64,000 nt of DNA from a virus. Every line of letters begins with the position of its first letter. Position 1 is the first letter of the stretch. The notes below the pieces were generated by a model, which was given only the letters and a program-made list of their open reading frames with translations, was not told the origin of the DNA and did no database searches. This document shows, in pieces, positions 5,034 through 24,621 of this stretch. The stretch lies in IMG/VR virus record IMGVR_UViG_3300032334_001488, positions 2,502 through 66,501 of that record, one strand, 5' to 3'. Made by a program: the position numbers and the translations under genes.

Positions 5034-5061
5034 TAAGCAGTTTAACGTCATGCTTAGGACG
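5034..5061 (-). ncRNA. PK1 pseudoknot repeat, copy A
   Basis: Minus strand CGUC-C-UAAGCA-U-GACG-UUAAAC-UGCUUA. Confidence 0.8.
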
Positions 5062-5089
5062 TAGGTTTACTTTAAAATTGATTGTGCTT

Positions 5090-6034
5090 TCATTTCTTTA
5101 AAAACCCTTGAAGTTGTGGTAATGAAGTCAAAGGAAAAGGTACGTAGCCAGCCTCCATCATGTTATCAAACAGGTCCCATGCGTTGTGTTGTGTAAACAA
5201 TGTGCGTGGCTTGTAGGTGCGCCAATGTGTTAAAGGCGCCATAGCTCCAGACTGAGTATGCAATAGAACCATTCTTCCATCACTTACTGAATCTGATGGA
5301 GGAGCATAAGCCCATGCAACACACTTCTCACTGGCACTACCACGTGCGTTATTACGTACGTCACTACGCTTAACAAGTAGTTCACGATACTTATTAAACC
5401 AAGTCAAGTGAATGCACCAGGGTTTGTACCCTTCTATCTCAGCCTGGAAATCAGACAGATTATTTAGTTGTCTAGTGAATGATCCACATGAGCAATATGG
5501 CGCCAACGCTTGTACTCCATTGCCATTAGATTCCTCTCCAAATTCAGACTCCATATCAACAGGTTGTGACTCAGCTCGCCAGCCGTCCGGAGCAATAAGA
5601 TGACCCAGATCTGTTTGGTCAGACTGAAGTAACGCTTCCAAACGCGTTTTGTCTTTGATGTGAATAAACTTGTCAGCCCATAACGCTTGAAGTTTGGCGG
5701 ATGCCGTAAGATGTCCCAGGCTATGGTTATAATTCCAGCCTTTAAAAATGACGTAGGCGTTGTTGTGCCAGATTGATGGGCCACGATAGTTTGCTCCGAG
5801 ATAGGAAAAGAAATCTTTGAGTCTGAATGTGTAGTCAAGATAAGCTTGCTTGATCAATGCGCGATCATAACACTGAGTAGTATTATCAGACCGACGCACA
5901 ACAACATTAGTATCAAGTAAAGAGATGTTGCTAATCCCTGTATCATCAAAGCCAGGGAAAGCGCGAGATATGTTAGTACGAGAATAAATTGAAGACTGAG
6001 CAGTGTTGAGCGTTTTATTTAAAAGTGTAGTCAT
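5090..6034 (-). CDS. SWIM zinc-finger domain protein
   Basis: CSCGSF...PWCIHL fits the SWIM CxC-xn-CxH motif. Confidence 0.65.
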   Translation of the reverse strand: MTTLLNKTLNTAQSSIYSRTNISRAFPGFDDTGISNISLLDTNVVVRRSDNTTQCYDRALIKQAYLDYTFRLKDFFSYLGANYRGPSIWHNNAYVIFKGWNYNHSLGHLTASAKLQALWADKFIHIKDKTRLEALLQSDQTDLGHLIAPDGWRAESQPVDMESEFGEESNGNGVQALAPYCSCGSFTRQLNNLSDFQAEIEGYKPWCIHLTWFNKYRELLVKRSDVRNNARGSASEKCVAWAYAPPSDSVSDGRMVLLHTQSGAMAPLTHWRTYKPRTLFTQHNAWDLFDNMMEAGYVPFPLTSLPQLQGFLKK

Positions 6035-6099
6035 TGATACAGATTGGGTGGTTGAGTTGAAGTTGACTTAGCTGTAGACTAAACAAAACTCTGACTGAC

Positions 6100-6366
6100 A
6101 TGGAAGAGCTTGAGCATGGTACTTATGTACCACTTGAGAAGTTTGATTTATCTCCCAGTCTTAATGATAAGTTCTGGGAAGAAAACATCAAACGCCTCAT
6201 TCAAAAATCCACATCAGTCAGTGAGTTACGTGAGATTGCAACGTTGTTGGTAACACTTGCAACTACACGTCAAGGTGTAATTCGTGGGCTGGTAAAAGAC
6301 ATGCACTCCTTTAACAATGTTGTTGTAGATAATGCAGCAATTACCAACCCAGAAGTTAAACCCTAA
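6100..6366 (+). CDS. NblA-like protein (phycobilisome degradation), divergent
   Basis: SLNDKF...IKRLIQ...VSELREIA..L..L...RQ..IR.LV helix-loop-helix resembles picocyanobacterial/phage NblA-like proteins; own TAGACT -10. Confidence 0.4.
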   Translation: MEELEHGTYVPLEKFDLSPSLNDKFWEENIKRLIQKSTSVSELREIATLLVTLATTRQGVIRGLVKDMHSFNNVVVDNAAITNPEVKP

Positions 6367-7371
6367 TTAAAACAAGGAGTCATCCTCACCTGTCATAGGA
6401 TCCTGAGCTGATTGAAGTTGCAACACAATGTGATCAGTCCCTCTGGAAGCAGGAAGGATTTCTACACCTGCCTTGATTCCATAAGCACCACCCAACTTGT
6501 CAGCATCTTGCTTGGAATGTTGATTGATGTAATCAGCAAACAGCTCTTGGAATTTCCAAGTTGATTCACGATCTTCATCAGGAATCGACATGCGATTCAA
6601 TGATTCGATAGCGGCTTCTTCTGTGCTGTAATCAGGTAGGTCAAAAGATTCAATTGCGCAAATCTCAACGTTGTTGGCGCCGCGCATGTCGTTGACAAGT
6701 ACCGGAGTAAATACGGTAGTGGCGTAGAACTTTTCATTGAATGCAAGAGGAACTTCAGCGGCCAGTGCTTTACTAAGGCACTTGGACATTTCTTTTTCAT
6801 ACAACTTGATCTTCTCAGCTGCATCAGTACCGTTCAATCCTTTCAGTGTTAGCACCATAGGAATTTTGTGGGCACGCACATTATCCTTGGTAAGAATGTA
6901 CACAAGGTACTTGGTGCGCACACTGAACTTGCGCTTGTACATCTCACCTTTGCTGTTGGCAAGATCAGAGGCAGTCTTGTCAGCATCCCACAGATCTTTA
7001 ACATCGGGATTATCAAATGTACCGATAGTCATACGCATCCCAGTAGTTTCCTCAACCATGAGGGGAGAACGTAAAAGCACTTGAATTCGAGGCTCAGTAA
7101 AATTGAGTCCTTCTTCAATTGAAGTGTTGGGAGCCATACCAAAAGTTTGCTTGTAGTTCCAGATAACTGAACCTTTAGCAAATTGATCTTCAGTGGCACT
7201 CCATCCGCAAGTGTCAAGGTCTGACTTCCGCACGAACCAACCTCGTGTCTTGGACTTGTTGAGAGGCTGGATAGTGACGAGGTTCTGGTACCCCGAAACA
7301 AATTCTTTAGACTGAAAAAGCTGAAACGATTTGATTCCACGGGTTGCAATAGCAGCGGTTTTCGTAGTCAT
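6367..7371 (-). CDS. Conserved cyanobacterial/cyanophage protein (DUF5895-like), possible ssDNA-annealing function
   Basis: Adjacent to SSB; acidic aromatic C-terminus (EDDSLF); family recalled from memory only. Confidence 0.4.
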   Translation of the reverse strand: MTTKTAAIATRGIKSFQLFQSKEFVSGYQNLVTIQPLNKSKTRGWFVRKSDLDTCGWSATEDQFAKGSVIWNYKQTFGMAPNTSIEEGLNFTEPRIQVLLRSPLMVEETTGMRMTIGTFDNPDVKDLWDADKTASDLANSKGEMYKRKFSVRTKYLVYILTKDNVRAHKIPMVLTLKGLNGTDAAEKIKLYEKEMSKCLSKALAAEVPLAFNEKFYATTVFTPVLVNDMRGANNVEICAIESFDLPDYSTEEAAIESLNRMSIPDEDRESTWKFQELFADYINQHSKQDADKLGGAYGIKAGVEILPASRGTDHIVLQLQSAQDPMTGEDDSLF

Positions 7372-7395
7372 GTCAAGGTCGGTTGGGTTTGTTGG

Positions 7396-7423
7396 TGAGC
7401 AGTTTTACGTCATACTCAGGACG
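7396..7423 (-). ncRNA. PK1 pseudoknot repeat, copy B
   Basis: CGUC-C-UGAGUA-U-GACG-UAAAAC-UGCUCA. Confidence 0.8.
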
Positions 7424-7438
7424 GATTTTTAAAACTGA

Positions 7439-8248
7439 TTAGAAAGGTTCGTCACTAAGCTCCGGTGCAGTGCCATATTGACCAGGTAATTCTGGCAGAC
7501 CGCCGCCAGATGTCACGTTCCAAGGGTCAGAACCTTCATCGGCTGTGCGTCCACCCCACAAGGTTGTCACTCCTTCTGGCGAAGCTACTGTCGTCTGTGG
7601 CTTGATTTCCTGAGCACCTGTCTGCCCTTTGGGAGCCAGGGTCATGCTTACTAATTGAATCTTGGTAAGGCTGCGACGTTCTTTTGTTTCTTTATCTAGC
7701 CAAGCATCAGTAACAAGGCGGCCTTGAATAGTAAGACCAGTGCCTTTACGCGTGAAGTTAACAAGAAGTTCCGCTTGCTTAAGCTTGTCTTCTGCATTGT
7801 TGATTGCATAAAAGTTAAACAGATCAGACTGATTGCGTCCAGTGTTAACTGCTAATGTCTGGTTGCAGATCATGGTACCATCAGCCGTTGTCTTAAAGGC
7901 ACGTGCATCTTGATGGTCAATGTCTTTAACACAACGACCACTAAGGATTACTGTGTTGAAGATAGGGAACTGATCATTAACTTGAGCAATGATTCCTCCA
8001 TGGAGAGAATAAGTTTTAGCCTCCAGATCGAACCGCAGTTTTGCACCATGGATGTAGATTTGAGCTCCTTGAGAAGTACGAGAAAAACGCTCAGCATTTT
8101 TTCCGTACACATTGAGTTCAATTGCAGTAGGTGCTTTGTTTCCAATGGGCGGCAGCAACACCATACAACGTGCTGCTGTGGATGTAGCGCTGGTGTAAAC
8201 TTCTCGTGGCGCTTCAGTAGTCTGAGCGCAAAGTGTAACAAAGTTCAT
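7439..8248 (-). CDS. ssb: Single-stranded DNA-binding protein with two tandem OB folds
   Basis: The second half, NTVILSGR...TLAVN...KGTGLTIQGRL.TD.W.DKET.E.RS, is a classic SSB OB fold. The first half is a degenerate OB fold. Acidic tail SDEPF. Confidence 0.85.
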   Translation of the reverse strand: MNFVTLCAQTTEAPREVYTSATSTAARCMVLLPPIGNKAPTAIELNVYGKNAERFSRTSQGAQIYIHGAKLRFDLEAKTYSLHGGIIAQVNDQFPIFNTVILSGRCVKDIDHQDARAFKTTADGTMICNQTLAVNTGRNQSDLFNFYAINNAEDKLKQAELLVNFTRKGTGLTIQGRLVTDAWLDKETKERRSLTKIQLVSMTLAPKGQTGAQEIKPQTTVASPEGVTTLWGGRTADEGSDPWNVTSGGGLPELPGQYGTAPELSDEPF

Positions 8249-8268
8249 GAAATCAAAAGTGTAGTTGA

Positions 8269-8295
8269 AAGCAGTTTAACGTCTTACTTGGGACG
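8269..8295 (-). ncRNA. PK1 pseudoknot repeat, copy C
   Basis: CGUC-CC-AAGUA-A-GACG-UUAAAC-UGCUU. Confidence 0.75.
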
Positions 8296-8300
8296 GGGCA

Positions 8301-10166
8301 TTAGTGGGTCTGATCCCAGGACCAGCCTACTTTACAGTCGCCTTCAATCTCACAACGGAATGTAAAGAATTGTTGCGCTTGCGGGAAGGCAAGCAAGGCC
8401 TGTTCTCTAACAATTGCAGTGTTTGTCTTAGGACAAGACAACTGAATCTCATCATGAATCATGGCATGTTGAATCCAATCTTTACCATGCACTAAGCCTT
8501 TAGCTTCAAGATTGGTATGTGTATTAATTACAACTTGCTTCATAAGCATGGCACCTGCCCCTTGAAGCAACACATTCAATGCACTAAAGTCTGACCGACA
8601 AAACAATGCACGTCCATCTAATCCACGTAGGTACCCACGTTGTTGTACAGCGCTTGCTAACTTTTGTTTTAATTTTTTAAGCGCTGGCACACCATCCATA
8701 AAACCATTGATTGCATTACGTCCCAATTGTTTTAAACGCACAGGATCTTTTTCGCTTGGATCTACAATGCCACCAGCTTTTTCATTACCACAGCCATAGA
8801 GCATTGCATATATTAAACGCTTGGCAATGTCTCTAGTAGGCACACCAAACTTATCTTGGTTGTACACATGAATGTCAACTGATTCATCTGTCACAAGGTT
8901 GGCATATTCACCGTCATCCCATAGGGCAAGATACCCACCAAGACAACGCAACTCCAATGCTTTGGCATCTACACCTAACAAATCCCAGTCATCTGGCGCA
9001 TGAAATAAACTCCTGCATTCTTTACCGTACGGGCTATAAGATGCTGGCACTTGCCCCATGTTTGGATTACGATGTGCGCAACGTCCGGTAATACAACCAT
9101 TAGTTACAACTTCACCATGCATACATGAGTCTTGATTGTTTACATATTTAAGCCAAGCTTTGTCTCCATCAGCAATTTGCCCTAGTCTTTTCTTAATAGT
9201 TAAGTATTCACCCAACACCTTGGCCTCAGGATAATCCAATGCACTTAACACTTCATCGTCAAGGATTGGATTACCTTTATCCGTCAGCTCCTCTGGTACC
9301 CACCCATATTTACTTTTAAGCCTGTTAACAATTTGAGGGCGGGAACCAGGATTAAATTTCTGATATGTCACTTTAGTAAATGGCTCACCTTTAATGTAAC
9401 CACGAGTCTTGTTGTTTACCTTTGGTACAAATATTGACTCTTGTTTAATGGGCGGAAATACTTCCATTACTTTTGCATGGAGTTCATCTTTCTTTGCTCT
9501 GAGTACATCCACCAGATCAAGACATACATCCACATCAAAAGGAAAACCTGCTCGCACTTGTTTATTAATTGCAAGAGCAAAGTCATGCTCCAACTTAAGC
9601 GCCGCTTCCGCATAATTTTGTTTCTGAATGAATTGGAATAATTCAAAAGTAACTTTAACATCTTGCTCGCAGTACGCCAGCATTTCCTCGGAGTACGCAC
9701 TAAAATCTTTGAACTCAATCTTGTAATTGGAAAGGCGGTAACCCCACGCTTTAAGGCCGGCCCTACCCTTGAGGTTCTTTGGTACGTCCGGATATTGTTC
9801 TGTGTCAAGGTCATAGAGAACTTCTTTTGGCCAAATGAGTTGTGTACAAATGAGTGTGTCAATAATTCTTCCCCGAAACTTTGCGGTATCGGGGAAAAGT
9901 TTTTGAAGAACTGGGATGTCATAGAACAGAATATTCTGCCCTATAAGGACATCACTGCTAGCAAGATGATTAATAGCAGCCAGAATAGAATCGGGTCCAT
10001 AGTGATGTACTTGTTTTGTTTGAATATTGTATATGACAATGCAATGGATAACCGTTACATTGTCATACAATCCATCTGACTCTAAATCAAATACCAGCCA
10101 AGTCTCATTTTCTAAAACGGGACTCATCTTGAATTGAGAGGTCTTGACTGGCGAGAGCGGGATCAT
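8301..10166 (-). CDS. DNA polymerase family A (T7 gp5-like) with 3'-5' exonuclease
   Basis: ExoI FDLESDG, ExoIII YCEQD, motif A DAKALELR, motif B RDIAKRLIYAMLYG (Tyr at the 762-equivalent), motif C HDEIQ. Confidence 0.97.
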   Translation of the reverse strand: MIPLSPVKTSQFKMSPVLENETWLVFDLESDGLYDNVTVIHCIVIYNIQTKQVHHYGPDSILAAINHLASSDVLIGQNILFYDIPVLQKLFPDTAKFRGRIIDTLICTQLIWPKEVLYDLDTEQYPDVPKNLKGRAGLKAWGYRLSNYKIEFKDFSAYSEEMLAYCEQDVKVTFELFQFIQKQNYAEAALKLEHDFALAINKQVRAGFPFDVDVCLDLVDVLRAKKDELHAKVMEVFPPIKQESIFVPKVNNKTRGYIKGEPFTKVTYQKFNPGSRPQIVNRLKSKYGWVPEELTDKGNPILDDEVLSALDYPEAKVLGEYLTIKKRLGQIADGDKAWLKYVNNQDSCMHGEVVTNGCITGRCAHRNPNMGQVPASYSPYGKECRSLFHAPDDWDLLGVDAKALELRCLGGYLALWDDGEYANLVTDESVDIHVYNQDKFGVPTRDIAKRLIYAMLYGCGNEKAGGIVDPSEKDPVRLKQLGRNAINGFMDGVPALKKLKQKLASAVQQRGYLRGLDGRALFCRSDFSALNVLLQGAGAMLMKQVVINTHTNLEAKGLVHGKDWIQHAMIHDEIQLSCPKTNTAIVREQALLAFPQAQQFFTFRCEIEGDCKVGWSWDQTH

Positions 10167-10338
10167 TCTTATTAATCCAAGTTAAGATTTGTTGCGCACC
10201 TGCGCGATGCGGGTGGGAAAAAATCTTGTTCAAAGCTACATCAGAGTCTAACGGAACCAGCTTGAAAGAGTTGCTTTGAGTACAAGCAGTAATGGCGGAT
10301 GGTTGATCCGTGTTCATTGAAACAATGACGTAGCTCAT
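10105..10338 (-). CDS. Hypothetical protein
   Basis: ORF between the GP88-like gene and the polymerase. Confidence 0.55.
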   Translation of the reverse strand: MSYVIVSMNTDQPSAITACTQSNSFKLVPLDSDVALNKIFSHPHRAGAQQILTWINKNDPALASQDLSIQDESRFRK

Positions 10339-10380
10339 GGATGTAAAAGAAGTCGGGCTAATGTTAACACGCCTGCAATT

Positions 10381-11190
10381 TCACGCACGAACTTTTTTGG
10401 TCTTGTTGTACCCAGTAAACTTACCCTGTTTGCGCCGAGCATTGATAGCAGCTTGCGCATCTGAACCAGCACGTTGTGGACTATGGACCAACAATGCAAA
10501 GGGCTTGTCACCAAAGCAGTGACTGTCATCATGGTCAATCTCAAGCCCTAGTTCTGCTGCTTCTTCTTCTGTGTACACAACATAAGCAACACGCTTAAAC
10601 ACATTGGGATTGCGTAAAATCATACGGTCAAGCATGCCGCCGATTGATGCAGTCAACATAAAGTTTGCTGGTATCTTTTCGTGTATAGCTAGCCAATCAT
10701 TAAGCATCTTGGTGTACGCATAGAACTTAATAGCAGGATACCTGGTAGCAACACGTGCCCATGCTTCCATGTAAGCACGTGCCCAGAAGTCACCACTCTC
10801 ATGGATGCGACAAATCTCAAGTGCTGGTTGTACTAGTAGTGACAACTCAATCAGTCCTGCAATCAACTCAACCTGCTGTTCATAACTCTTGCCTTGTAAC
10901 TCCCTGTAACTACCGTGGTCACCGCCATACATTGTCTCACGTAACAGATCCCAGTTGTGCCAGCGTGCATCACGTACGTTTGGAAACATGGCTTCTGACA
11001 TGGCAGCAAAACATCTGTAGTCTTGCGTCAGATCAATAGGTTGTTGCGGTAGATCCATCAACCTACCTGTGGTGCGATCAGCCATTGCTTTACATACTCC
11101 TGCATTAGGGCATGTGTAACCTGCTGGCAAGCTAAAGATCAAACGCTTACCAAGCTTGGCGTTGCCTGTGGAAAATTTAAGAAGTTGCAT
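10381..11190 (-). CDS. GP88-like protein (Cys-rich, radical-SAM-like fold suspected)
   Basis: GNAKLG...FSLPAG.TCP.A..C...CFA...RIHESGDF...FYAYTK. Confidence 0.7.
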   Translation of the reverse strand: MQLLKFSTGNAKLGKRLIFSLPAGYTCPNAGVCKAMADRTTGRLMDLPQQPIDLTQDYRCFAAMSEAMFPNVRDARWHNWDLLRETMYGGDHGSYRELQGKSYEQQVELIAGLIELSLLVQPALEICRIHESGDFWARAYMEAWARVATRYPAIKFYAYTKMLNDWLAIHEKIPANFMLTASIGGMLDRMILRNPNVFKRVAYVVYTEEEAAELGLEIDHDDSHCFGDKPFALLVHSPQRAGSDAQAAINARRKQGKFTGYNKTKKVRA

Positions 11191-11224
11191 GGTGTTGAAT
11201 GAAATGAATGATAATAAAAACTAA

Positions 11225-11252
11225 TGAGCAGTTTAACGTCATGCTTAGGACG
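11225..11252 (-). ncRNA. PK1 pseudoknot repeat, copy D
   Basis: CGUC-CUA-AGCA-U-GACG-UUAAAC-UGCU. Confidence 0.75.
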
Positions 11253-11257
11253 TACAG

Positions 11258-11563
11258 CTAATCTACGTTAATAAGTTCAACGGATTCTCTGAATTGTTCA
11301 CGGCTTAGCCGTGCAAGAATAGCACCTCCTGTAGCTGGTACCTGGGTAGGACCATCATGAATTAAGATTTCCCATACCATGTCATCGGTATCCATCCAAT
11401 TCTTACCAGCTTTAACTGCAAGTTTGATTGCATGCTCAGTTGATTTCCTTGGAAGTTCAACACGAATAATCATAAATGGATCATCTTCATTGTCTTGAGT
11501 GAATGCAGCTAACCAAAACTTTTTAGTTTTGATTGCTGGTGGCGCAGCAAATCCTTTAGTCAT
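11258..11563 (-). CDS. Hypothetical protein
   Basis: MTKGF start, coupled to the thyX stop. Confidence 0.6.
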   Translation of the reverse strand: MTKGFAAPPAIKTKKFWLAAFTQDNEDDPFMIIRVELPRKSTEHAIKLAVKAGKNWMDTDDMVWEILIHDGPTQVPATGGAILARLSREQFRESVELINVD

Positions 11564-12186
11564 TTAAATGCAGCCTCACCAATAACAGGGAATTGTTCAA
11601 TGAAGATTTGTTTGCAGCCTTCTGCAATCAACCGATGCTCTAGCTGTGTTTCTTTTGATGCACGTACATTGATATAGTGAATCCACGACCGGATCGAGCC
11701 GTTCATATACAAAGTAGTTTGTGTACTAAGTGGAAGAATGCGACGTGCACATTCTTTAGCTACACCATCTGCAATCATTTGCATATAAAGCTCTTCAATG
11801 TCCGCATACTGATTACGAATCTGTTCATCATAATATTCTTGTATATTAAAATCCAAATCATTTGTACTGTTTTGCCTATTCTTTAGATCCTGCCTACGCA
11901 GATTTGGAATAGCAAATGGCTGCGCTTTTGCATACCTGGTACTAAACTCTTGAAAACTAAATGAACGATGGCGTAAGATCTGTGCGGAAATGTCACGTTC
12001 TGTGTGTATTTGCACACAAAGATTGGCCATTTCAAATATAGAAAAATGTTTATGATCTAAACAATACTTAAGAAGTTTGGGCCCTGTTTCCCAATTATCC
12101 TGATTAGAAGGATTGGAAACCCGAGCCATTTTGACAACTAGTTTTTCAGCTTCTGGTGTAGCCCAGACAAATTCAACGTTACTCAT
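11560..12186 (-). CDS. thyX: FAD-dependent thymidylate synthase ThyX
   Basis: RHRSFSFQEFSTRY signature; ARVS, H.SIFE, E.AR.ILP, GSIRSWIHY, TQ.EHR. Confidence 0.97.
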   Translation of the reverse strand: MSNVEFVWATPEAEKLVVKMARVSNPSNQDNWETGPKLLKYCLDHKHFSIFEMANLCVQIHTERDISAQILRHRSFSFQEFSTRYAKAQPFAIPNLRRQDLKNRQNSTNDLDFNIQEYYDEQIRNQYADIEELYMQMIADGVAKECARRILPLSTQTTLYMNGSIRSWIHYINVRASKETQLEHRLIAEGCKQIFIEQFPVIGEAAFK

Positions 12187-12620
12187 TTTAGTAAATAGTT
12201 AACAGCTTTTTGAATAAGAACTGGATCATCATTAAATTTTCCAATTGATTGGTTGCACCTTCTACATAAAAGCCCTCGTATTTTACCAGTAATGTGGCAG
12301 TGGTCAACCGCTAAGCGTTTACCGCTACTACACGTATTGTTACAAATAACGCACACATTATTTTGAGCCACAAGCATTTGATCATAGTCTTCAATAGTTA
12401 ACCCAAATGTTTTTAAATTTGCTTTGCGTTTATAAACCGGTTTATACGGATTATTATTTGTATACCCTCTATATTTTTCTGGATTTTTTTTATAATTTAT
12501 TCTAAAAGTTTCAGCGTAACATGTTTTACAAATTGTTCTAGGTTTAGGATTTGTTTTACCTGTTTTGTAAAACTCAGACTCAAGTTTTAATTCTTTACAT
12601 TTTGTACATTCTTTTGTCAT
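12183..12620 (-). CDS. Endonuclease VII-family (homing) endonuclease
   Basis: N-terminal Zn ribbon CTKC...CKTC; Q..VC.IC...LAVDHCH.TGKIRGLLC..CN..IG; GGAG RBS before ATG 12620. Confidence 0.9.
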   Translation of the reverse strand: MTKECTKCKELKLESEFYKTGKTNPKPRTICKTCYAETFRINYKKNPEKYRGYTNNNPYKPVYKRKANLKTFGLTIEDYDQMLVAQNNVCVICNNTCSSGKRLAVDHCHITGKIRGLLCRRCNQSIGKFNDDPVLIQKAVNYLLK

Positions 12621-12805
12621 GATAGTGCTCCATAAATAACAAGCCACTTTACAGCAAACGGCGACCAATGCTGATGATCAATAAGATACCGCAATAGTTT
12701 TGGTGCAGTTGCCAAGTTGTTTTCATTGTCAGGATTGGATACCCTGGCCATCTTTACAATCAAAGCTTCTGCGTTGGGAGTGCAGTGAACAAATTCAACA
12801 GTCAT
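12617..12805 (-). pseudogene. thyX: Truncated 5' fragment of a second thyX allele
   Basis: MTVEFVHCTPNAEALIVKMARVSNPDN..N.ATAPKLLRYLIDHQHWSPF aligns with the first ~50 aa of the intact ThyX, then diverges and stops. Confidence 0.85.
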
Positions 12806-14056: not shown

Positions 14057-14080
14057 AAAAAACCCCCGCTTGCGCAGGGG
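14057..14080 (-). terminator. Intrinsic terminator
   Basis: Minus strand CCCCUGC-GCAA-GCGGGGG-UUUUUU. Confidence 0.7.
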
Positions 14081-14100
14081 CCGAACATTCCGTAGCCAGC

Positions 14101-16526: not shown

Positions 16527-16556
16527 TGAGCCAGTTTAATGTCTTAGCTCAGGACA
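16527..16556 (-). ncRNA. PK1 pseudoknot repeat, copy E
   Basis: UGUC-C-UGAGCUA-A-GACA-UUAAAC-UGGCUCA; both stems show compensatory changes. Confidence 0.8.
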
Positions 16557-16964: not shown

Positions 16965-16980
16965 GTAATGTGTGTGTTGT

Positions 16981-17010
16981 TGAGTCAGTTTAACGTCATG
17001 ACTCAGGACG
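16981..17010 (-). ncRNA. PK1 pseudoknot repeat, copy F
   Basis: CGUC-C-UGAGUCA-U-GACG-UUAAAC-UGACUCA. Confidence 0.8.
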
Positions 17011-17015
17011 CATGA

Positions 17016-17267: not shown

Positions 17268-17470
17268 AGTGTGTTGGCAACTTTGCGTGTACCCTCATAG
17301 CCACCCTTGGCATTCATTGCCCGTGCATATGCACACTTAGCAGGACCTGGGTGCAGATAGTACAACTTAATCCAAGTCTGTAGTTCATCCTGCCACAGAC
17401 GCATGTATTCATCTTGAATCTTTGTAGTCTCAAGCCAAGCAGTCATAAGAGTTGCAGTGTGAATTGACAT
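17252..17470 (-). CDS. Hypothetical protein
   Basis: ATG 19 nt downstream of PK1 copy G. Confidence 0.55.
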   Translation of the reverse strand: MSIHTATLMTAWLETTKIQDEYMRLWQDELQTWIKLYYLHPGPAKCAYARAMNAKGGYEGTRKVANTLWGIY

Positions 17471-17489
17471 GTGAGTTGAGTAAGTGGAC

Positions 17490-17515
17490 AGCAGTTTAAC
17501 GTCATGCTTAGGACG
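17490..17515 (-). ncRNA. PK1 pseudoknot repeat, copy G
   Basis: CGUC-CUA-AGCA-U-GACG-UUAAAC-UGCU. Confidence 0.75.
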
Positions 17516-17597
17516 TGCAACTATTTTAAAGTTGCGACAATAGCACCAACTAAATAACCAAAAACAAAACTAGCAAGCATAAGTCCACTTGTCATAA

Positions 17598-18485: not shown

Positions 18486-18491
18486 CATATA

Positions 18492-19119: not shown

Positions 19120-19140
19120 GTGTTAAAGCAATGGGATAGT

Positions 19141-19190
19141 CCTATAAAGATCAAAGGATTCCCTGGTAGATCTTTACGGGGGTGTGGGGG
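19141..19190 (-). repeat. CCCCACACCCC/UACCAGGGA hairpin element, copy 1
   Basis: CCCCCACACCCCC-GUAAAGAUC-UACCAGGGAAUCCUUU-GAUCUUUAU. Confidence 0.5.
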
Positions 19191-19254
19191 GTTGGTCAGT
19201 AGTTATCCGACAGGACCCCAGTGATAGACTGATTAAAACATTAGACATACGTAT

Positions 19255-19830: not shown

Positions 19831-19833
19831 AAA

Positions 19834-20028: not shown

Positions 20029-20039
20029 TGGTTAATACC

Positions 20040-20503: not shown

Positions 20504-20691
20504 GAACAATCCTCCAATTGTGTTGTGTTGATTTGCTGACATTCCGATAGTTGATCTTGTGTCCAAGCCATTGGCATGTCGTCTTCATCTAGTTCTTCTT
20601 GCATGGCCATACGTTGGTAGTACGCCATGTCTGCTAGTACTTCCCAATGATCAGACCATTCCTGATCAAAAGTTTCCACTGGTTGATGCAC
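20500..20691 (-). CDS. Hypothetical acidic protein (GTG start)
   Basis: GGAGG RBS then GTG at 20691; the ORF-track start lies inside PK1 copy H. Confidence 0.55.
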   Translation of the reverse strand: MHQPVETFDQEWSDHWEVLADMAYYQRMAMQEELDEDDMPMAWTQDQLSECQQINTTQLEDCS

Positions 20692-20717
20692 TGAGTTACC
20701 TCCGAATGAATGTGGGT

Positions 20718-20747
20718 TGAGCCAGTTTAACGTCATAGCTCAGGACG
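20718..20747 (-). ncRNA. PK1 pseudoknot repeat, copy H
   Basis: CGUC-C-UGAGCUA-U-GACG-UUAAAC-UGGCUCA. Confidence 0.8.
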
Positions 20748-20748
20748 T

Positions 20749-20807
20749 ACACCTCCATAGATAACAGCCTTCTCCCTGGTAGTGGCTGTCACTACGGGGT
20801 GTGGGGG
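20749..20807 (-). repeat. CCCCACACCCC/UACCAGGGA hairpin element, copy 2
   Basis: CCCCCACACCCCGUAG-UGACAGCC-ACUACCAGGGAGAA-GGCUGUUA-U-CUAUGG. Confidence 0.5.
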
Positions 20808-20817
20808 TCAGTTTCTG

Positions 20818-21183: not shown

Positions 21184-21223
21184 GCTAGTACTGCATCGGT
21201 GTGGGTGATTAGTTCTTGTGTAA

Positions 21224-21466: not shown

Positions 21467-21469
21467 GGC

Positions 21470-21706: not shown

Positions 21707-21852
21707 TAGTAACCTCGTGTAGTAGTTTGAATGTATGCAGCAGAACAATTTGTCCGTTGCAATGTAGCAAAAGCTGCCGTTACAATGCCAATTAAAATAA
21801 CATAAGCTAAGACTTTGCTTGCGTAAAACTTAAATGAATCTATGGGATACAT
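21706..21852 (-). CDS. Small membrane protein (48 aa)
   Basis: MYPIDSFKFYASKVLAYVILIGIVTAAFATLQR...; stop overlaps the next start. Confidence 0.5.
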   Translation of the reverse strand: MYPIDSFKFYASKVLAYVILIGIVTAAFATLQRTNCSAAYIQTTTRGY

Positions 21853-21860
21853 TTGAATTT

Positions 21861-22175
21861 TCATGGTGTAATCCACTCGTAATCACTTGGTTCATATACT
21901 GTTTCTGACCCATCATATTCTTCAATACGATAAGGGCCAAACACTTGTGCAATTTTTAAATCAGAACCACAGCCATTAGCTTTTTTGCCAAGTTCTTGTA
22001 CGACTTGCACTAAGATTGGATTGTGACGAGCACAATCATATAAGTATGCACAATTGTTGTGAAGACTGTTGATACTAGTTTCGCCTGTAAATCCTAACTC
22101 TTTCATTCTTGTTAAAGCTTCAGCTGAAATACTGAATCCTCCATAACAAGCGTTGTAAACAACTTTGGTAAGCAT
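21861..22175 (-). CDS. Conserved phage protein
   Basis: KVVYNACYGGF..S.EA...RH.P.LVQVV.ELG..ANG....L....Y.IEEYDG.E; GGAGG RBS. Confidence 0.75.
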   Translation of the reverse strand: MLTKVVYNACYGGFSISAEALTRMKELGFTGETSINSLHNNCAYLYDCARHNPILVQVVQELGKKANGCGSDLKIAQVFGPYRIEEYDGSETVYEPSDYEWITP

Positions 22176-22200
22176 TGAATCCTCCTTGAGTTAAGTGTGC

Positions 22201-22248
22201 GCAGAACCTTGTGAGTTCTGCAGAGGGCCATTGCTGGCCCAGTGCAGA
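22201..22248 (-). ncRNA. Alternative-pairing hairpin repeat, copy i
   Basis: UCUGCA-CU-GGGCCA-GCAA-UGGCCC-UC-UGCAGAAC-UCACAAG-GUUCUGC. Confidence 0.7.
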
Positions 22249-22251
22249 CTT

Positions 22252-22398
22252 CTACCAGTCGTAGATACGCACCACGTTTAACTCAACAGGTGATCTGTTG
22301 AGCAACTCTGCGCCTGTGACCAAGGCTTCTGTCTTTGTACGGGCATAGAGCTCTACAACAGAATCCTGGTACCACACTCGCCATAGTGTGCGTTCCAT
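22252..22398 (-). CDS. Small hypothetical protein (48 aa)
   Basis: MERTLWRVWYQDSVVELYA...; GAGGAG RBS. Confidence 0.55.
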   Translation of the reverse strand: MERTLWRVWYQDSVVELYARTKTEALVTGAELLNRSPVELNVVRIYDW

Positions 22399-22655
22399 CA
22401 CTCCTCAATGCCATAGGCCTGTTCCCACTTAAGGAACTCCCTATTGCATTGTACTTTCTGTTCTAGTACAGCACAGATAGGCATTAGATCAGTAAACTGA
22501 GTTATCCCATCTTGAAACTGATAAAACAACTCTAGTGCTTGTTGTCTAAGCTTTTCGATTTCCCAATCAATGCATGGGTGTGCACTGGTTGAATCTCGAC
22601 GAGCAAGCAGCCTGACACGCTGAGTTAATAACTCTTCAACGTAGGAAATTTCCAT
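22398..22655 (-). CDS. Hypothetical protein
   Basis: Helical ORF downstream of hairpin repeat ii. Confidence 0.6.
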   Translation of the reverse strand: MEISYVEELLTQRVRLLARRDSTSAHPCIDWEIEKLRQQALELFYQFQDGITQFTDLMPICAVLEQKVQCNREFLKWEQAYGIEE

Positions 22656-22678
22656 GGTGTTGAATTGAGGTGTACTAA

Positions 22679-22724
22679 GCAGACAATGAAGTCTGCAGAG
22701 AGGGCCGTAGCCCTCAGTGCAAAC
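22679..22724 (-). ncRNA. Alternative-pairing hairpin repeat, copy ii
   Basis: GUUUGCA-CU-GAGGGC-UACG-GCCCUC-UC-UGCAGAC-UUCAUU-GUCUGC. Confidence 0.7.
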
Positions 22725-22725
22725 G

Positions 22726-22947
22726 TCAGTCGCCTAGCTCTGCAAAGAAAGCTTTGGCTAGCTCTTGTGCTTGTAACCAGGCTGTTACTGACATGACTGC
22801 CAGCAAAGGCATGGTTGCACTATTAGAACCAGCAGCTTTCCATTCAAAGCTAAGCTCTAAAGCATACTCTTGTGCTTGCTCTTCTGTTTCGAAGAGCTCT
22901 GGTTCCCCATTTACAGCACAAACGTATGCATTCTTAATGAGTGACAT
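22726..22947 (-). CDS. Hypothetical protein, paralog of 23010..23162
   Basis: YVCAVNGEP.LF...A..Y..EL......G....MP.L. Confidence 0.6.
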   Translation of the reverse strand: MSLIKNAYVCAVNGEPELFETEEQAQEYALELSFEWKAAGSNSATMPLLAVMSVTAWLQAQELAKAFFAELGD

Positions 22948-22970
22948 TGAATTAATTTGCAATAGGATGC

Positions 22971-22999
22971 ATGCGTTATTACAGAGACGCATCCCTCTG
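22971..22999 (-). ncRNA. PK2 pseudoknot repeat, copy 1
   Basis: CAGAG-GG-AUGCGU-CUCUG-UAAUA-ACGCAU. Confidence 0.6.
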
Positions 23000-23009
23000 G
23001 CGTTGATGC

Positions 23010-23162
23010 TTAATCTATGCTACAAAATAATAAACAAGGCATCTCCTTGCCTTCTGCAATTAACTTAGCCTCCAGCTCTTTTGAAAAGCTGGAGGCTTCA
23101 TCCATATCTTTGAAGAATATGGGTGCATCATTGTAAATGCACACGTATTCGTAGTTGTCCAT
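23010..23162 (-). CDS. Hypothetical protein, paralog of 22726..22947
   Basis: YVCIYNDAP.FF...A..F..EL......G..MP.L. Confidence 0.55.
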   Translation of the reverse strand: MDNYEYVCIYNDAPIFFKDMDEASSFSKELEAKLIAEGKEMPCLLFCSID

Positions 23163-23183
23163 GTGTTGAATGCAATGGGATGT

Positions 23184-23212
23184 ATGCGTTATTACAGAGA
23201 CGCATCCCTCTG
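23184..23212 (-). ncRNA. PK2 pseudoknot repeat, copy 2
   Basis: Identical 29-nt core to 22971..22999. Confidence 0.6.
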
Positions 23213-23217
23213 GGGCA

Positions 23218-23373
23218 TCAAACAATAGGACGTATGTCCTTGGGTTGAATCCAGTCAGCTAACTTACGTCGTACTGCACGAATGTCAGCTTGGATCATCT
23301 CCTTCGTTTGATCCTTCTCTAGCTTGACTGCTGTTGCCAGCAGTACATTAGACAGGAACTTACGTACAGCCAT
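23218..23373 (-). CDS. Small hypothetical protein (51 aa)
   Basis: MAVRKFLSNVLLATAVKLEK...; AGGAG RBS. Confidence 0.6.
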   Translation of the reverse strand: MAVRKFLSNVLLATAVKLEKDQTKEMIQADIRAVRRKLADWIQPKDIRPIV

Positions 23374-23393
23374 GATGCTCCTTGGTAAATGAA

Positions 23394-23438
23394 GCAGACT
23401 TGAGGTCTGCAGAAAGGGCCGTAGCCCTTAGTGCAAAC
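23394..23438 (-). ncRNA. Alternative-pairing hairpin repeat, copy iii
   Basis: GUUUGCA-CU-AAGGGC-UACG-GCCCUU-UC-UGCAGAC-CUCAA-GUCUGC. Confidence 0.7.
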
Positions 23439-23439
23439 G

Positions 23440-23631
23440 TCAGATCTTGTAGCCGTTCGCTACACACCACTTAGATGTGGCGACTGCCTTATCGGCAGGC
23501 CAATCGTGTGTACGGCATTGTGCTGCCGTTGCTTTATCCAGGGCTTTAACACCCACTGTCGCCATGACTCCTGTAACTGCTAGCCATGGTGCGACCATGG
23601 CAATGTACAGTGCGATGACTTGCTTAGCCAC
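23440..23631 (-). CDS. Small membrane-anchored protein (GTG start)
   Basis: AGGAG RBS; TM segment; QC.THDWP...WC..NGY motif. Confidence 0.6.
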   Translation of the reverse strand: MAKQVIALYIAMVAPWLAVTGVMATVGVKALDKATAAQCRTHDWPADKAVATSKWCVANGYKI

Positions 23632-23647
23632 AGGAATCTCCTGTTGT

Positions 23648-23671
23648 GCGGTGCCTATCTCCGCTGGAGGC
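23648..23671 (-). ncRNA. PK3 SD-proximal pseudoknot, copy 1
   Basis: GCCU-CCA-GCGG-AGAU-AGGC-A-CCGC followed by AGGAG. Confidence 0.7.
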
Positions 23672-23701
23672 AATTGCTAGTCCCGGCATCACGCCTGGTA
23701 C

Positions 23702-23833
23702 TCAGTTGTACTTACTCAGTGCTAACTGAATAAGCTCTTTAACCACTTCGCGGGAGAGTGGATACAGTAATGTTGTGCGCCATGTGCGCAATACAACCTC
23801 TCGTTGAGCACGAGGTAGATTAATGTAGCTCAC
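23702..23833 (-). CDS. Small hypothetical protein (43 aa, GTG start)
   Basis: AGGAG RBS; MSYINLPRAQREVVLRTW... Confidence 0.5.
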   Translation of the reverse strand: MSYINLPRAQREVVLRTWRTTLLYPLSREVVKELIQLALSKYN

Positions 23834-23850
23834 AGAAAACTCCTGTGTGT

Positions 23851-23874
23851 GCGGTGCCTATCTCCGCTGGAGGC
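23851..23874 (-). ncRNA. PK3 SD-proximal pseudoknot, copy 2
   Basis: Identical 24-nt core to copy 1. Confidence 0.7.
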
Positions 23875-23919
23875 AATAACTGTGGGAGGGTTTGCACCCC
23901 CCAGCATCACGCATGGTAC

Positions 23920-24123
23920 TTAGAAGGGAAACGTATCAATCTCCCCGTAAGAGTTAATGCTCTCATTGGGCTCTAACTCATGGACAAGTTGATGCGCCCA
24001 TAAGTTACCCCATGGGTGAAACTGATTAGCGAACTCGCCAATTACTTCTTCTGCAAGAAGGATGGCTTCTTCTTTCGTGGCGGCTGCTTTATACCAGCAG
24101 CCACAATCAACTGCGTAGGTCAT
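23920..24123 (-). CDS. Hypothetical protein
   Basis: Protein-like ORF. Confidence 0.55.
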   Translation of the reverse strand: MTYAVDCGCWYKAAATKEEAILLAEEVIGEFANQFHPWGNLWAHQLVHELEPNESINSYGEIDTFPF

Positions 24124-24181
24124 GACTTAAATAAGCCACACTCAGTGTGTGGCAATAACCAAAGGGAGAGTTGCACTCCCT

Positions 24182-24219
24182 CCTGCATTGCTGCAGGGAC
24201 CCTGCATTGCTGCAGGGAC
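24182..24219. repeat. 19-nt tandem repeat of a GCAA-tetraloop hairpin
   Basis: CCTGCATTGCTGCAGGGAC x2. Confidence 0.8.
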
Positions 24220-24307
24220 TACTCTTGGCTAGCGCTACAATTCTGTACCGCGAAAGCGGGGGAGTGTAGCACACCCTAATATGAATACGTATCAGCTACG
24301 TATCAGC

Positions 24308-24580
24308 TTAATCCATGTAGGTGACGCTACCGAAGCGCCAATCAGGGTAGAAGTGCTTCTCCCAGAGATCAGGGCGAATCCGCCCCTTAACTAAAACTTG
24401 CTGGACAAGCGCCTTGGCGCGCTCGGGTGTGTGACCGTCGATTGATAAGCCGAGCTTATCACTCCACTTGATGTACACCCTGGAGCCAAAGCTCCATACC
24501 TTCGCGTAGTCCTTCAGCCGCCACACCGTGCTAGTATTGCTGCCGGCGTAGGTTGCTGGTGCTGCACTGGCTGTACTCAT
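24308..24580 (-). CDS. Hypothetical protein, first gene of the early arm
   Basis: AGGAG RBS before MSTASAAP. Confidence 0.65.
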   Translation of the reverse strand: MSTASAAPATYAGSNTSTVWRLKDYAKVWSFGSRVYIKWSDKLGLSIDGHTPERAKALVQQVLVKGRIRPDLWEKHFYPDWRFGSVTYMD

Positions 24581-24597
24581 GGTCTCTCTCCTGGTGC

Positions 24598-24621
24598 GGG
24601 GTGCTAATCTCCCCTGGTAGC
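24598..24621 (-). ncRNA. PK3 SD-proximal pseudoknot, copy 3 (covarying)
   Basis: GCUA-CCA-GGGG-AGAU-UAGC-A-CCCC followed by AGGAG. Confidence 0.7.

What the first reader, a model, noticed from the sequence alone, without database searches (positions are those of the whole stretch)
5034..24621. Early arm punctuated by multiple families of structured RNA spacers: a candidate post-transcriptional control system
Seen: at least 18 small elements in five repeat families (PK1 x8, PK2 x2, PK3 x3, alternative-pairing hairpin x3, UACCAGGGA hairpin x2), plus single structured gaps, lie on the minus strand. Most start a few nt after a stop codon and end about 15-35 nt before the next start. I found none in the plus-strand late arm. 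Compensatory changes, G-U wobbles and UNCG/GNRA loops all read correctly on the coding strand, so selection appears to act on RNA rather than DNA. The families are ordered along the arm: PK3 first, then the hairpin and PK2 families, then PK1 through the replication genes. Established: cyanobacteria have RNase E, RNase III and the 5'-3' exonuclease RNase J; T7 cuts its early mRNA at repeated RNase III hairpins; the T4 gene 32 operator is a pseudoknot. Inference: a long polycistronic transcript is cut into per-gene units whose 5' ends are protected (xrRNA-like), or whose translation is gated by pseudoknots. The repeats may also act as recombination points for gene-cassette shuffling.
Basis: partly seen in the sequence, partly recalled or inferred. 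Interest (0 to 1): 0.88.

Follow-up and report, generated by a model that had tools for sequence, protein, structure and literature searches.

The report
Coremin-like RNA pseudoknots between phage genes
The repeated spacers in this cyanophage's early arm are real folded RNA elements, and the main one is a small pseudoknot found in many phages that closely resembles a plant-virus RNA known to stop RNA-degrading enzymes, which suggests phages use it to mark and protect gene units on long messages.

Summary
Observation confirmed. All 18 elements in five families exist on the minus strand.

PK1 has exactly 8 copies. A covariance model with filters off finds none on the plus strand or in the late arm.

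PK1 is an H-type RNA pseudoknot: S1 of 4-5 bp, L1 = C, S2 of 5-7 bp, L3 = (U)UAAAC. Compensatory changes support both stems on 144 distinct sequences.

It also occurs in isolated phages of Staphylococcus, Lactobacillus, Geobacillus, Arthrobacter, Mycobacterium, Nostoc and Synechococcus, and in a crAss-like phage. Rfam 15 has no match.

[quoted passage not shown] The classical coremin sequence itself lies ahead of scaffold genes in tailed-phage contigs. PK1 holds the same position in Staphylococcus, Lactobacillus and D6E phages.

Best reading (0.5): a directional roadblock at gene boundaries that stops 5'-to-3' decay and ribosomes. Function is untested.

PK3 (a tRNA-top-half-like junction plus pseudoknot) and the alternative-pairing family also covary in relatives. 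The PK2 and UACCAGGGA folds remain unresolved.

The parts
20718..20748 (-). PK1 copy c1 (7-bp S2 variant UGAGCUA/UGGCUCA), ahead of a GTG-start ORF at 20691
   Evidence: (30.7 bits)
17488..17516 (-). PK1 copy c2, 4 nt after the stop of a 24-aa ORF, 17 nt before the ATG at 17470
   Evidence: (43.2 bits)
16981..17011 (-). PK1 copy c3 (S2 UGAGUCA/UGACUCA, compensatory relative to c1 and c4)
   Evidence: (33 bits)
16527..16556 (-). PK1 copy c4, ahead of the 577-aa PcfJ-like gene
11225..11253 (-). PK1 copy c5, 4 nt after a stop, ahead of the GP88-family gene
8268..8296 (-). PK1 copy c6, 4 nt after the DNA polymerase stop, 19 nt before the SSB start
7396..7424 (-). PK1 copy c7, after SSB, ahead of the DUF5895 gene
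5034..5062 (-). PK1 copy c8, ahead of a 41-aa ORF and the Gam-like gene
23847..23924 (-). PK3 copy A: three-way junction (stem holding the stop codon, GUGAU hairpin, T-loop-like hairpin), then pseudoknot UGCCU-CCA-GCGG-AGAU-AGGCA-CCGC, then SD and GTG
   Evidence: (D7)
23645..23706 (-). PK3 copy B (junction without the T-loop hairpin, plus pseudoknot)
24595..24624 (-). PK3 copy C, both stems changed in a compensatory way (GCUA/UAGC, GGGG/CCCC)
23391..23444 (-). Alternative-pairing element copy 1: UGA stop paired in P1, UACG hairpin P2, central UGCAGAC can pair 5' (P1) or 3' (P3)
   Evidence: (D11)
22676..22730 (-). Alternative-pairing element copy 2
22198..22255 (-). Alternative-pairing element copy 3 (GCAA loop; P3 GCAGAAC/GUUCUGC)
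22958..23000 (-). PK2 (D10) copy 1; hairpin GGAUGCGU/ACGCAUGCAUCC overlapping a possible start codon; fold unresolved
   Evidence: z -2.2
23171..23213 (-). PK2 (D10) copy 2
   Evidence: z -1.3
20764..20811 (-). UACCAGGGA element copy a (C-rich 5' tract plus hairpin); fold unresolved
19145..19199 (-). UACCAGGGA element copy b (different stem, same loop)
14061..14082 (-). Strong intrinsic-terminator-like hairpin plus U tract inside the arm

Best explanation
The early arm is read as sense-strand RNA. Small folded modules sit in nearly every longer gap of that RNA.

The dominant module, PK1, is a 29-31-nt H-type pseudoknot. It is a Watson-Crick-extended relative of the coremin exoribonuclease-resistant RNA of eukaryotic RNA viruses. 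It sits as close to the upstream stop codon as a terminating ribosome allows, and just outside the footprint of a ribosome starting on the next gene, so it stays folded on translated mRNA.

Inferred mechanism: it acts as a directional mechanical roadblock at the cistron boundary. A 5'-to-3' exonuclease such as RNase J, entering from a cut upstream, stalls at its base. A ribosome running past the stop would stall there too. The downstream cistron or tRNA therefore survives as its own unit.

The other families add gene-boundary functions in this phage lineage. One is a tRNA-top-half-like junction plus pseudoknot directly ahead of the SD (PK3). Another is a two-state element that base-pairs the upstream stop codon (the alternative-pairing family).

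Shown: the folds, their strand, their spacing, their spread and the sequence likeness to coremin. Inferred: the stalling, the enzyme involved and any cleavage.
For: Fold.
- On 144 distinct sequences, 88.6% of cells pair, against 79.2% in shuffles (0 of 500 reach the observed value) and 25-45% when partners are slid.
- S1 pairs show 55, 21 and 34 double changes. The closing C:G pair is kept in 143 of 144. S2 pair 11:31 shows 17 double changes.
- When S1 was left free in the search pattern, it appeared as GUC/GAC, GAC/GUC, CAC/GUG, CCC/GGG, AUC/GAU, CUC/GAG, GCC/GGC and UAC/GUG.
- The unconstrained 3' flank complements the loop: G:C 40, A:U 15, G:U 6, mismatch 10, of 71.

Strand. 65 of 65 hits in relatives lie on the gene strand. 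All 6 S-EIV1 copies and all 7 copies in a complete 81-kb relative lie on one strand within one stretch of the genome.

Spacing.
- Among 192 outside instances with a called upstream ORF, the stop-to-S1 distance is 3-8 nt in 98 and 0-2 nt in none.
- In the window it is exactly 4 nt in 6 of 8 copies, four of them behind called ORFs.
- The next start lies 16-30 nt away in 83 of 227.
- The six nt after S2 are only 6-14% G.

Coremin likeness.
- The coremin sequence is GUCCGAAGACGUUAAACUAC (PMC10520033).
- It has a sequence-specific C:G closing pair, the 2nd and 3rd pairs can be swapped if kept complementary, and spacer positions A16-A20 are essential (PMC6546385 section 9).
- It stalls Xrn1, blocks scanning ribosomes and drives -1 frameshifting. 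A Watson-Crick pseudoknot variant exists (PMC10321173).
- PK1 keeps GUCC, GAC-R-UUAAACU and an invariant single-C L1.

Shared position. Classical coremin occurs in at least 114 IMG/VR stretches. Among them is a tailed-phage group in which it lies 84-87 nt ahead of the head scaffolding gene in 3 of 3 contigs checked. PK1 occupies the same minor-head/portal-to-scaffold gap in Staphylococcus phage B166, D6E and Lactobacillus Lj771.

Host pattern. There is no match in 5,426 E. coli genomes. The 67 genome hits are mostly Bacillota, Saccharibacteria, Desulfobacterota-like, cyanobacteria and actinomycetes.
Against: - No RNA data: no 5' ends, no stalling assay, and no RNA run was listed.
- Coremin needs a second hairpin (hp2) for Xrn1 resistance (PMC6546385; PMC10321173). 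PK1 has no conserved hp2, because its 3' flank is G-poor.
- The PK1 loop does not fit the YGAD/YGNNAD rule.
- RNase J exceeds the family cut-off in only 23 of 34 PK1-holding genomes. A Bacteroidaceae MAG lacks it, yet a crAss-like phage carries a strong PK1 of 45.3 bits.
- Placement is tied more tightly to the upstream stop than to the next start.
- Convergent arrangements (16) outnumber divergent ones (4).
- In at least 6 cases PK1 lies 3-4 nt before a tRNA, and once between two tRNAs. These cases fit a 3'-end or released-RNA role at least as well.
- The patterns used to collect instances fixed parts of the motif, so conservation at those columns is partly by construction.
Confidence: 0.5

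Rival explanations
1. PK1 belongs to the upstream gene. It forms a 3'-end cap that blocks 3'-to-5' exonucleases after termination, RNase P cleavage at a following tRNA, or an endonuclease cut in the G-poor stretch. Alternatively it acts on the terminating ribosome.
For: - Stop-to-S1 distance is 3-8 nt in 98 of 192 instances, a tighter distribution than the distance to the next start.
- 16 convergent against 4 divergent arrangements.
- PK1 is followed by 3-4 nt and then a tRNA in L097, L071, L184, L245, L154 and L033, and in Molivia and NMeng1. RNase P cleavage there would leave a tail too short for exonuclease loading; that consequence is my inference.
- 33 of 235 instances are followed by a U-rich tract.
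Against: - The A-rich L3 over S1 is the design of pseudoknots that resist 5'-to-3' motors. This is recalled, and also noted in PMC10321173 passages.
- The coremin relatives are 5'-to-3' blocks.
- In head modules the highly expressed genes (scaffold, capsid) lie downstream of the motif.
- Gene calls behind the convergent/divergent count used only ORFs of at least 90 aa.
Confidence: 0.15
2. PK1 is a processing unit or a released small RNA. It could be a mini acceptor/T-arm mimic (7 + 5 bp stack) cut out by tRNA-processing enzymes, which punctuate the transcript. It could also be a trans-acting decoy for a host protein.
For: - 14 of the 15 PK1 instances that lie within 100 nt of a tRNA have that tRNA downstream on the same strand. 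One PK1 sits between two tRNAs.
- L070 carries three tandem copies with a 38-nt period after a tRNA 3' end.
- There is no gene-specific association: 108 families downstream of 148, and 89 upstream of 135.
- Loop and S2 letters are strongly conserved.
- 'CCA' follows S2 in 17 of 235 instances.
- The PK3 family in this same arm carries a tRNA-top-half-like junction.
Against: - ARAGORN calls nothing in the window.
- CCA is rare after S2.
- There is no T-loop in PK1.
- No shared partner protein is evident.
- None of this was testable here.
Confidence: 0.12
3. PK1 is a translational operator bound by a phage protein, such as the SSB, like the T4 gene 32 pseudoknot. It would then set up a replication-gene regulon.
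For: - Copy c6 lies 19 nt ahead of the SSB gene. The same holds in S-EIV1.
- SSB is the downstream gene in 4 of 148 instances.
- The T4 gene 32 operator is a coaxial two-stem pseudoknot followed by an unstructured A+U-rich leader with UUAA(A) repeats (PMC3014915 passages).
- The window leaders are G-poor.
Against: - The same motif precedes scaffold, PhoH, thioredoxin, HNH and tRNA genes in unrelated phages.
- In Molivia it follows the SSB gene rather than preceding it.
- Staphylococcus phages have a single copy, in the late operon.
Confidence: 0.07
4. The elements act on DNA, as promoters, operator sites or recombination sites for cassette shuffling.
For: - BPROM placed a promoter over the motif in phage B166. 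Its record annotates this as label P5R, at L134 2506-2542.
- The motif contains inverted repeats.
Against: - Covariation with G-U pairs reads on one strand only.
- Orientation is 81 co-directional against 3 antisense.
- The window region has 33 sigma-70-like sites against 45.5 in shuffles, and none at PK1.
- The six nt after S2 show no -10 pattern.
Confidence: 0.03
5. PK1 is a recoding signal, promoting read-through or frameshifting at the upstream stop.
For: A spacer of 3-8 nt between stop codon and pseudoknot is the geometry of recoding sites. Coremin drives -1 frameshifting in reporter assays (PMC10321173 passages).
Against: - The motif carries in-frame stops (UGA, UAA).
- Spacers vary, so no single frame is kept.
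- Read-through of the DNA polymerase stop would add only about 15 codons (read directly).
- I saw no slippery heptamer ahead of the stops I read.
Confidence: 0.03

Closest known systems
Coremin motif (xrRNA_C) of beny-, cucumo- and other eukaryotic RNA viruses
   Same: A 3-5-bp first hairpin with a sequence-specific C:G closing pair and freely covarying 2nd and 3rd pairs, followed by G/A-UUAAACU. The commonest PK1 form shares 15 of the 20 coremin letters. Both are small, sit in untranslated gaps and sometimes occur in tandem. The classical form also occurs in tailed phages ahead of scaffold genes.
   Different: The PK1 loop is 8 nt (C + UGAGCA + N), not YGAD/YGNNAD. Its 3' end (UGCUCA) forms a 5-7-bp Watson-Crick S2 in place of CUAC. 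There is no conserved hp2. The host is bacterial and the genome is dsDNA. Exonuclease resistance is untested.
Watson-Crick coremin (xrRNA_WCC; PMC10321173)
   Same: [quoted passage not shown]
   Different: xrRNA_WCC has a 4-nt loop, a 3-bp S2 and L1 = G, and it still needs hp2 for Xrn1 resistance. PK1 has a 5-7-bp S2, L1 = C and no hp2.
T4/T2/RB69 gene 32 autoregulatory pseudoknot (PMC3014915)
   Same: A phage mRNA pseudoknot of two coaxial stems ahead of an unstructured leader. One window copy precedes the SSB gene. In T4 an RNase E cut just upstream leaves the knot near the 5' end of a very stable mRNA.
   Different: The gene 32 knot is gene-specific and bound by gp32. PK1 precedes more than 100 gene families and also tRNAs.
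GP20-a / GP20-b RNA motifs (RF02991, RF03003) and the unnamed csRNAs upstream of GP20/GP32 (PMC10690425)
   Same: Structured RNAs directly upstream of phage scaffold-like (GP20) and SSB genes.
   Different: cmscan of the Staphylococcus phage gap found neither family at E <= 10. Whether PK1 is among that paper's 10,006 unnamed candidates could not be checked because supplements are closed.
Luteovirus-type frameshift pseudoknots (BWYV); partly recalled, named in PMC10321173 figure legend
   Same: A compact H-type knot with a short L1 cytosine and an A-rich L3 over a 5-bp S1.
   Different: Those lie inside ORFs after a slippery site. PK1 follows stop codons.

Membership tests
Coremin xrRNA_C | First hairpin of 3-5 bp with a C:G loop-closing pair; 2nd and 3rd pairs may covary | tested here: met
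   Closing C:G in 143 of 144; pairs 6:19 and 7:18 show 21 and 34 double changes. Rule taken from PMC6546385 section 9.
Coremin xrRNA_C | Loop YGAD (or YGNNAD) | tested here: not met
   The loop is C-UGAGCA-N, 8 nt. The papers report one octaloop as tolerated, but in the BNYVV context.
Coremin xrRNA_C | Spacer UUAAACUAC with A16-A20 essential | tested here: inconclusive
   AAACU is invariant in A2, though partly fixed by the search patterns. Position 20 is G, not A, and it pairs with the loop.
Coremin xrRNA_C | Second hairpin (hp2) directly downstream | tested here: not met
   The six nt after S2 are 6-14% G in 235 instances. The window leaders are nearly G-free.
Coremin xrRNA_C | Stalls a 5'-3' exoribonuclease | not testable with these tools
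   Needs an in vitro Xrn1 or RNase J assay.
xrRNA_WCC | [quoted passage not shown] | tested here: met
xrRNA_WCC | 4-nt loop with a bridging G5, plus hp2 | tested here: not met
   L1 is C in 144 of 144 and the loop is 8 nt.
T4 gene 32-type operator | Specific to the SSB gene leader | tested here: not met
   108 PHROG families lie downstream of 148 instances; SSB accounts for 4.
Any Rfam 15 family (including GP20-a/b, preQ1, pistol, tRNA, tLRNA mimics) | cmscan match | tested here: not met
   No hits at gathering threshold on the window. Nothing relevant at E <= 10 on 21 kb or on 111-, 201- and 321-nt stretches.
Sigma-70 promoter | -35 and -10 hexamers at fixed spacing | tested here: not met
Intrinsic terminator | GC-rich hairpin followed by a U tract | tested here: not met
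   A U-rich tract follows in only 33 of 235.
-1 PRF / read-through signal | Lies inside or extends an ORF; slippery site 5-9 nt upstream | tested here: not met
   The motif follows stops and carries in-frame stops.

The most novel reading that the evidence does not exclude
Phages of many bacterial phyla carry the same exoribonuclease-resistant fold that eukaryotic RNA viruses use (coremin). They carry it both in its classical form and in a Watson-Crick-extended form (PK1).

If so, this would be the first xrRNA class of the prokaryotic world. It would be a host-independent mechanical roadblock that punctuates polycistronic phage messages and tRNA clusters.

In this cyanophage lineage it would work together with tRNA-like cut sites (PK3 family) and stop-codon-sensing switches (alternative-pairing family). 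Together these would form a full post-transcriptional punctuation code for the early arm.
Probability: 0.4. Interest if true: 0.88.

Novelty: new variant of a known kind. Interest (0 to 1): 0.8.

Why it matters
- No search I ran found an exoribonuclease-resistant RNA described for bacteria or phages. Searches returned nothing relevant, and the three coremin papers do not mention phages or bacteria.
- A 29-nt module that shares its core with a validated xrRNA turns a long-standing question into a direct experiment. The question is how phages set different levels for genes on one long transcript. The module sits ahead of scaffold/capsid, SSB and replication genes in culturable phages (S. aureus Phietavirus, Lactobacillus, Geobacillus, S-EIV1).
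- It also raises the question of convergence versus transfer of an RNA fold between viruses of bacteria and of eukaryotes.
- It offers a compact part for stabilising mRNA in Gram-positive and cyanobacterial hosts.
- The PK1 pseudoknot and the PK3 (junction plus pseudoknot) and alternative-pairing families found here deserve covariance models in public RNA catalogues.

Tried and rejected
Rfam. Gathering-threshold and permissive searches gave nothing relevant.

Literature.
- Searching for motif letter strings gave only unrelated primer and shRNA hits.
- 'pseudoknot/bacteriophage/intergenic/capsid' gave nothing on this motif.
- 'exoribonuclease-resistant + RNase J + bacteriophage' returned 2 unrelated papers.
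- 'RAGATH' returned only RAGATH-18/TnpB papers.
- 'coremin motif + phage' returned 0 papers.
- I read PMC10690425 and the Minerva preprint by passages only. Neither describes PK1 in the passages I saw, and the supplementary tables were closed.

RNA evidence. No RNA holder was listed for window 5000-12000. Read laying was not used because only DNA contigs were on offer.

RNase J profile. RNase J is over the cut-off in 23 of 34 PK1-holding genomes, against 8 of 14 control genomes. This is not discriminating, since the MAGs are incomplete and phage contigs may be mis-binned.

Readings rejected.
- Riboswitch: there is no gene-specific context and the SD is not part of the fold.
- Type III antitoxin mimic: suggested only by the L070 tandem array. 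No toxin gene is nearby and the motif is conserved across phyla.
- Hammerhead, pistol or other ribozyme: no Rfam match and the motif is too small. This could not be excluded.
- Sigma-70 promoter: rejected.

Energies and unresolved folds. Single-hairpin energies of PK1 are unremarkable (z -0.06 to -1.7), as expected for a pseudoknot folded by a nested-only program. The PK2 (D10) and UACCAGGGA folds stay unresolved: z is -1.3 to -2.2 and only near-identical relatives exist.

Rows dropped.
- L322 and L344 (PK3 pattern hits that look coding) and six atypical rows were left out of the alignment.
- Eight pattern hits without the hairpin (L367-369, L374, L375, L382, L384, L385) were left out.
- Own-genome loci L001-L003 were left out of all counts.
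- 140 of 236 unique PK1 instances, drawn at random, plus 5 window copies made up alignment A2.

Full report
**Setting.**
- The window is positions 2502-66501 of a 66.5-kb IMG/VR virus record.
- Its only near DNA relative among deposited phages is Synechococcus phage S-EIV1.
- Genes on the minus strand up to about 25.3 kb include a family A DNA polymerase, SSB, thyX, and GP88-, PcfJ- and Gam-like proteins. The plus-strand arm starts at 25178.

**Observation.**
- The repeat finder and a listing of the gaps between minus-strand ORFs recover all five families.
- A covariance model (R1) was built from 140 outside instances plus 5 window copies.
- R1 finds exactly eight PK1 copies, all on the minus strand between 5028 and 20751. 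With filters off, nothing else in the 64 kb scores better than E = 0.67.
- In the window, S1 starts 4 nt after a stop in six of eight copies. Four of these are stops of called ORFs. S2 ends 16-34 nt before the next start in all eight. The leaders are almost free of G.

**PK1 is an RNA pseudoknot.**
- The element reads (A)CGUC-C-UGAGCA-U-GACG(U)-UAAAC-UGCUCA.
- In the 71 unique instances with a 6-nt S2 strand, the free flank complements the loop. C is present in 70 of 71 and U in 66 of 71. At the covarying position the pairs are G:C 40, A:U 15 and G:U 6, with 10 mismatches.
- A second pattern fixed S2 and left S1 free. It showed S1 in many complementary forms.
- On a gap-free alignment of 144 distinct sequences, 88.6% of cells pair. 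Shuffles give 79.2% and slid partners give 25-45%. There are 132 doubly changed cells against 31 in shuffles.
- U opposite G is common at one S2 position, so the pairing reads on the coding strand only.

**Spread and context.**
- The motif is in 110 deposited phage records at a permissive BLAST threshold, 83 of them Staphylococcus siphoviruses. A second query added Lactobacillus, Moorella, Mycobacterium, Microcystis and Christensenellales phages.
- R1 confirms the motif in Staphylococcus phage B166, D6E, Arthrobacter phage Molivia, S-EIV1 (6 copies) and crAss-like phage cr7_1.
- All 65 hits in 17 related or annotated loci lie on the gene strand.
- In 596 Gb of prokaryote genomes the first pattern occurs in only 67 stretches, mostly outside the classical Proteobacteria. 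One 33-nt query found nothing in 5,426 E. coli genomes.
- Neighbouring genes are diverse: 108 PHROG families downstream of 148 instances and 89 upstream of 135. Head scaffolding proteins (8 + 3) and SSB (4) recur downstream.
- Among 192 instances with a called upstream ORF, 98 have the stop 3-8 nt before S1 and none at 0-2 nt.
- Fifteen of 260 instances lie within 100 nt of a tRNA, and 14 of those tRNAs lie downstream on the same strand. Several are only 3-4 nt after S2.

**The coremin link.**
- Earlier notes of this scan pointed to the coremin motif. I checked this in the papers.
- Coremin is GUCCGAAGACGUUAAACUAC (PMC10520033, methods passage).
- Its first hairpin has a sequence-specific C:G closing pair. 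Its next two pairs can be exchanged if kept complementary. Spacer positions A16-A20 are essential. A second hairpin is required for Xrn1 stalling (PMC6546385, section 9 part 1).
- It also blocks scanning ribosomes (PMC10520033) and drives -1 frameshifting. A Watson-Crick pseudoknot variant exists (PMC10321173, passages).
- PK1 keeps GUCC, the C:G closing pair (143 of 144), the covarying inner pairs and GAC-R-UUAAACU. It differs in having a longer loop, which forms a 5-7-bp S2 with the letters after AAACU.
- A scan with the classical coremin pattern returned at least 114 IMG/VR stretches.
  - Some are small contigs with cucumovirus-like flanks.
  - Nine of the 28 unique contexts I could read form a tailed-phage group.
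  - In 3 of 3 contigs checked from that group, the motif lies 84-87 nt ahead of a head scaffolding gene, next to portal, minor-head and tape-measure genes.
  - PK1 holds the same gap in B166, D6E and Lj771.
- None of the three coremin papers mentions phages or bacteria (find counts of 0). No paper in the library holds both 'coremin motif' and 'phage'.

**Mechanism.**
- The spacing means that a ribosome on the stop codon just abuts S1, and a ribosome on the next start does not reach S2. This reading of the spacing is my inference from the distances. The knot therefore stays folded on translated mRNA.
- Together with the coremin likeness, the best reading is a directional roadblock for 5'-to-3' exonucleases and ribosomes at gene boundaries.
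- Several facts count against it or leave it open:
  - there is no hp2;
  - the loop rule is not met;
  - RNase J is over the cut-off in only 23 of 34 motif-holding genomes;
  - a crAss-like phage carries the motif;
  - convergent arrangements outnumber divergent ones 16 to 4;
  - some copies abut tRNAs.
- These points keep a 3'-cap role and a processed small-RNA role alive.

**Other families.**
- PK3 occurs in 45 IMG/VR stretches (39 unique contexts read).
  - Its core is UGCCU-CCA-GCGG-AGAU-AGGCA-CCGC, followed within a few nt by the SD.
  - S2 changes to GGGG/CCCC in L357, L334 and window copy C. In the printed rows the two S positions always complement each other.
  - Ahead of it lies a three-way junction. 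Its closing stem holds the upstream stop codon. Its third arm is a T-loop-like hairpin with 16 double changes of 34 sequences in each of three pairs.
  - No Rfam family matches it.
- The alternative-pairing family has 19 sequences.
  - It pairs the UGA stop and GUUUGCA with UGCAGAC..UCA, enclosing a UNCG or GNRA hairpin that covaries (9 double changes at two pairs).
  - The same UGCAGAC can instead pair with a downstream GUCUGC. Both options are kept in the GAAC/GUUC variant.
  - A ribosome on the stop would favour the second pairing; that is my inference.
- PK2 and the UACCAGGGA elements are conserved at 90-97% in close relatives only. Their folds are unresolved.

**Verdict.** PK1 is a new, uncatalogued, widespread phage variant of the coremin-type pseudoknot. 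Its function is untested.

Noticed in passing
window 12183-12805 (-): An Endonuclease VII-type HNH ORF (12668-12183; PF02945, E 1e-22) sits between a 62-aa thyX 5' fragment (12805-12617; matches Thy1 positions 3-54) and the full-length thyX (12186-11560). This looks like a homing-endonuclease insertion that duplicated the thyX 5' end.
   Followed up: partly
L070 7150-7560 (-): A 91.7-kb IMG/VR contig carries three tandem PK1 copies with a 38-nt period directly after a tRNA 3' end. A fourth copy with S1 swapped (GAC/GUC) lies about 170 nt further on. No toxin-like ORF is nearby.
   Followed up: partly
L415 8450-8560, L398, L438, L487: In the tailed-phage group that carries classical coremin, the 85-nt scaffold leader also holds two or three repeats of GGGAGACAC(C)...AAACUG after the motif, and an intrinsic terminator just before it.
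   Followed up: no
window 61763-63135 (+): Dense in-frame repeats of 15-45 nt units rich in ACNGGN codons (repeat families D1-D3, D5, D6). This is probably a repetitive fibre or tail protein.
   Followed up: no
window 24165-24183 (-): A further T-loop-like hairpin (GGAGGGAGUGCAACUCUCC), like those ahead of PK3, lies inside a called 55-aa ORF. That ORF call may be wrong, and a fourth partial junction may be present.
   Followed up: no
window 24629-24856 (-): The 228-nt gap at the head of the arm holds a terminator-like hairpin (CCAGGGUUAACACCCUGG plus a U tract) and a GGGCGGUAGCCC hairpin. It is 98.8% identical over 171 nt to a relative (L365).
   Followed up: partly
window 25178-28948 (+): The 1256-aa first ORF of the plus arm has no Pfam match at E <= 0.01.
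   Followed up: partly
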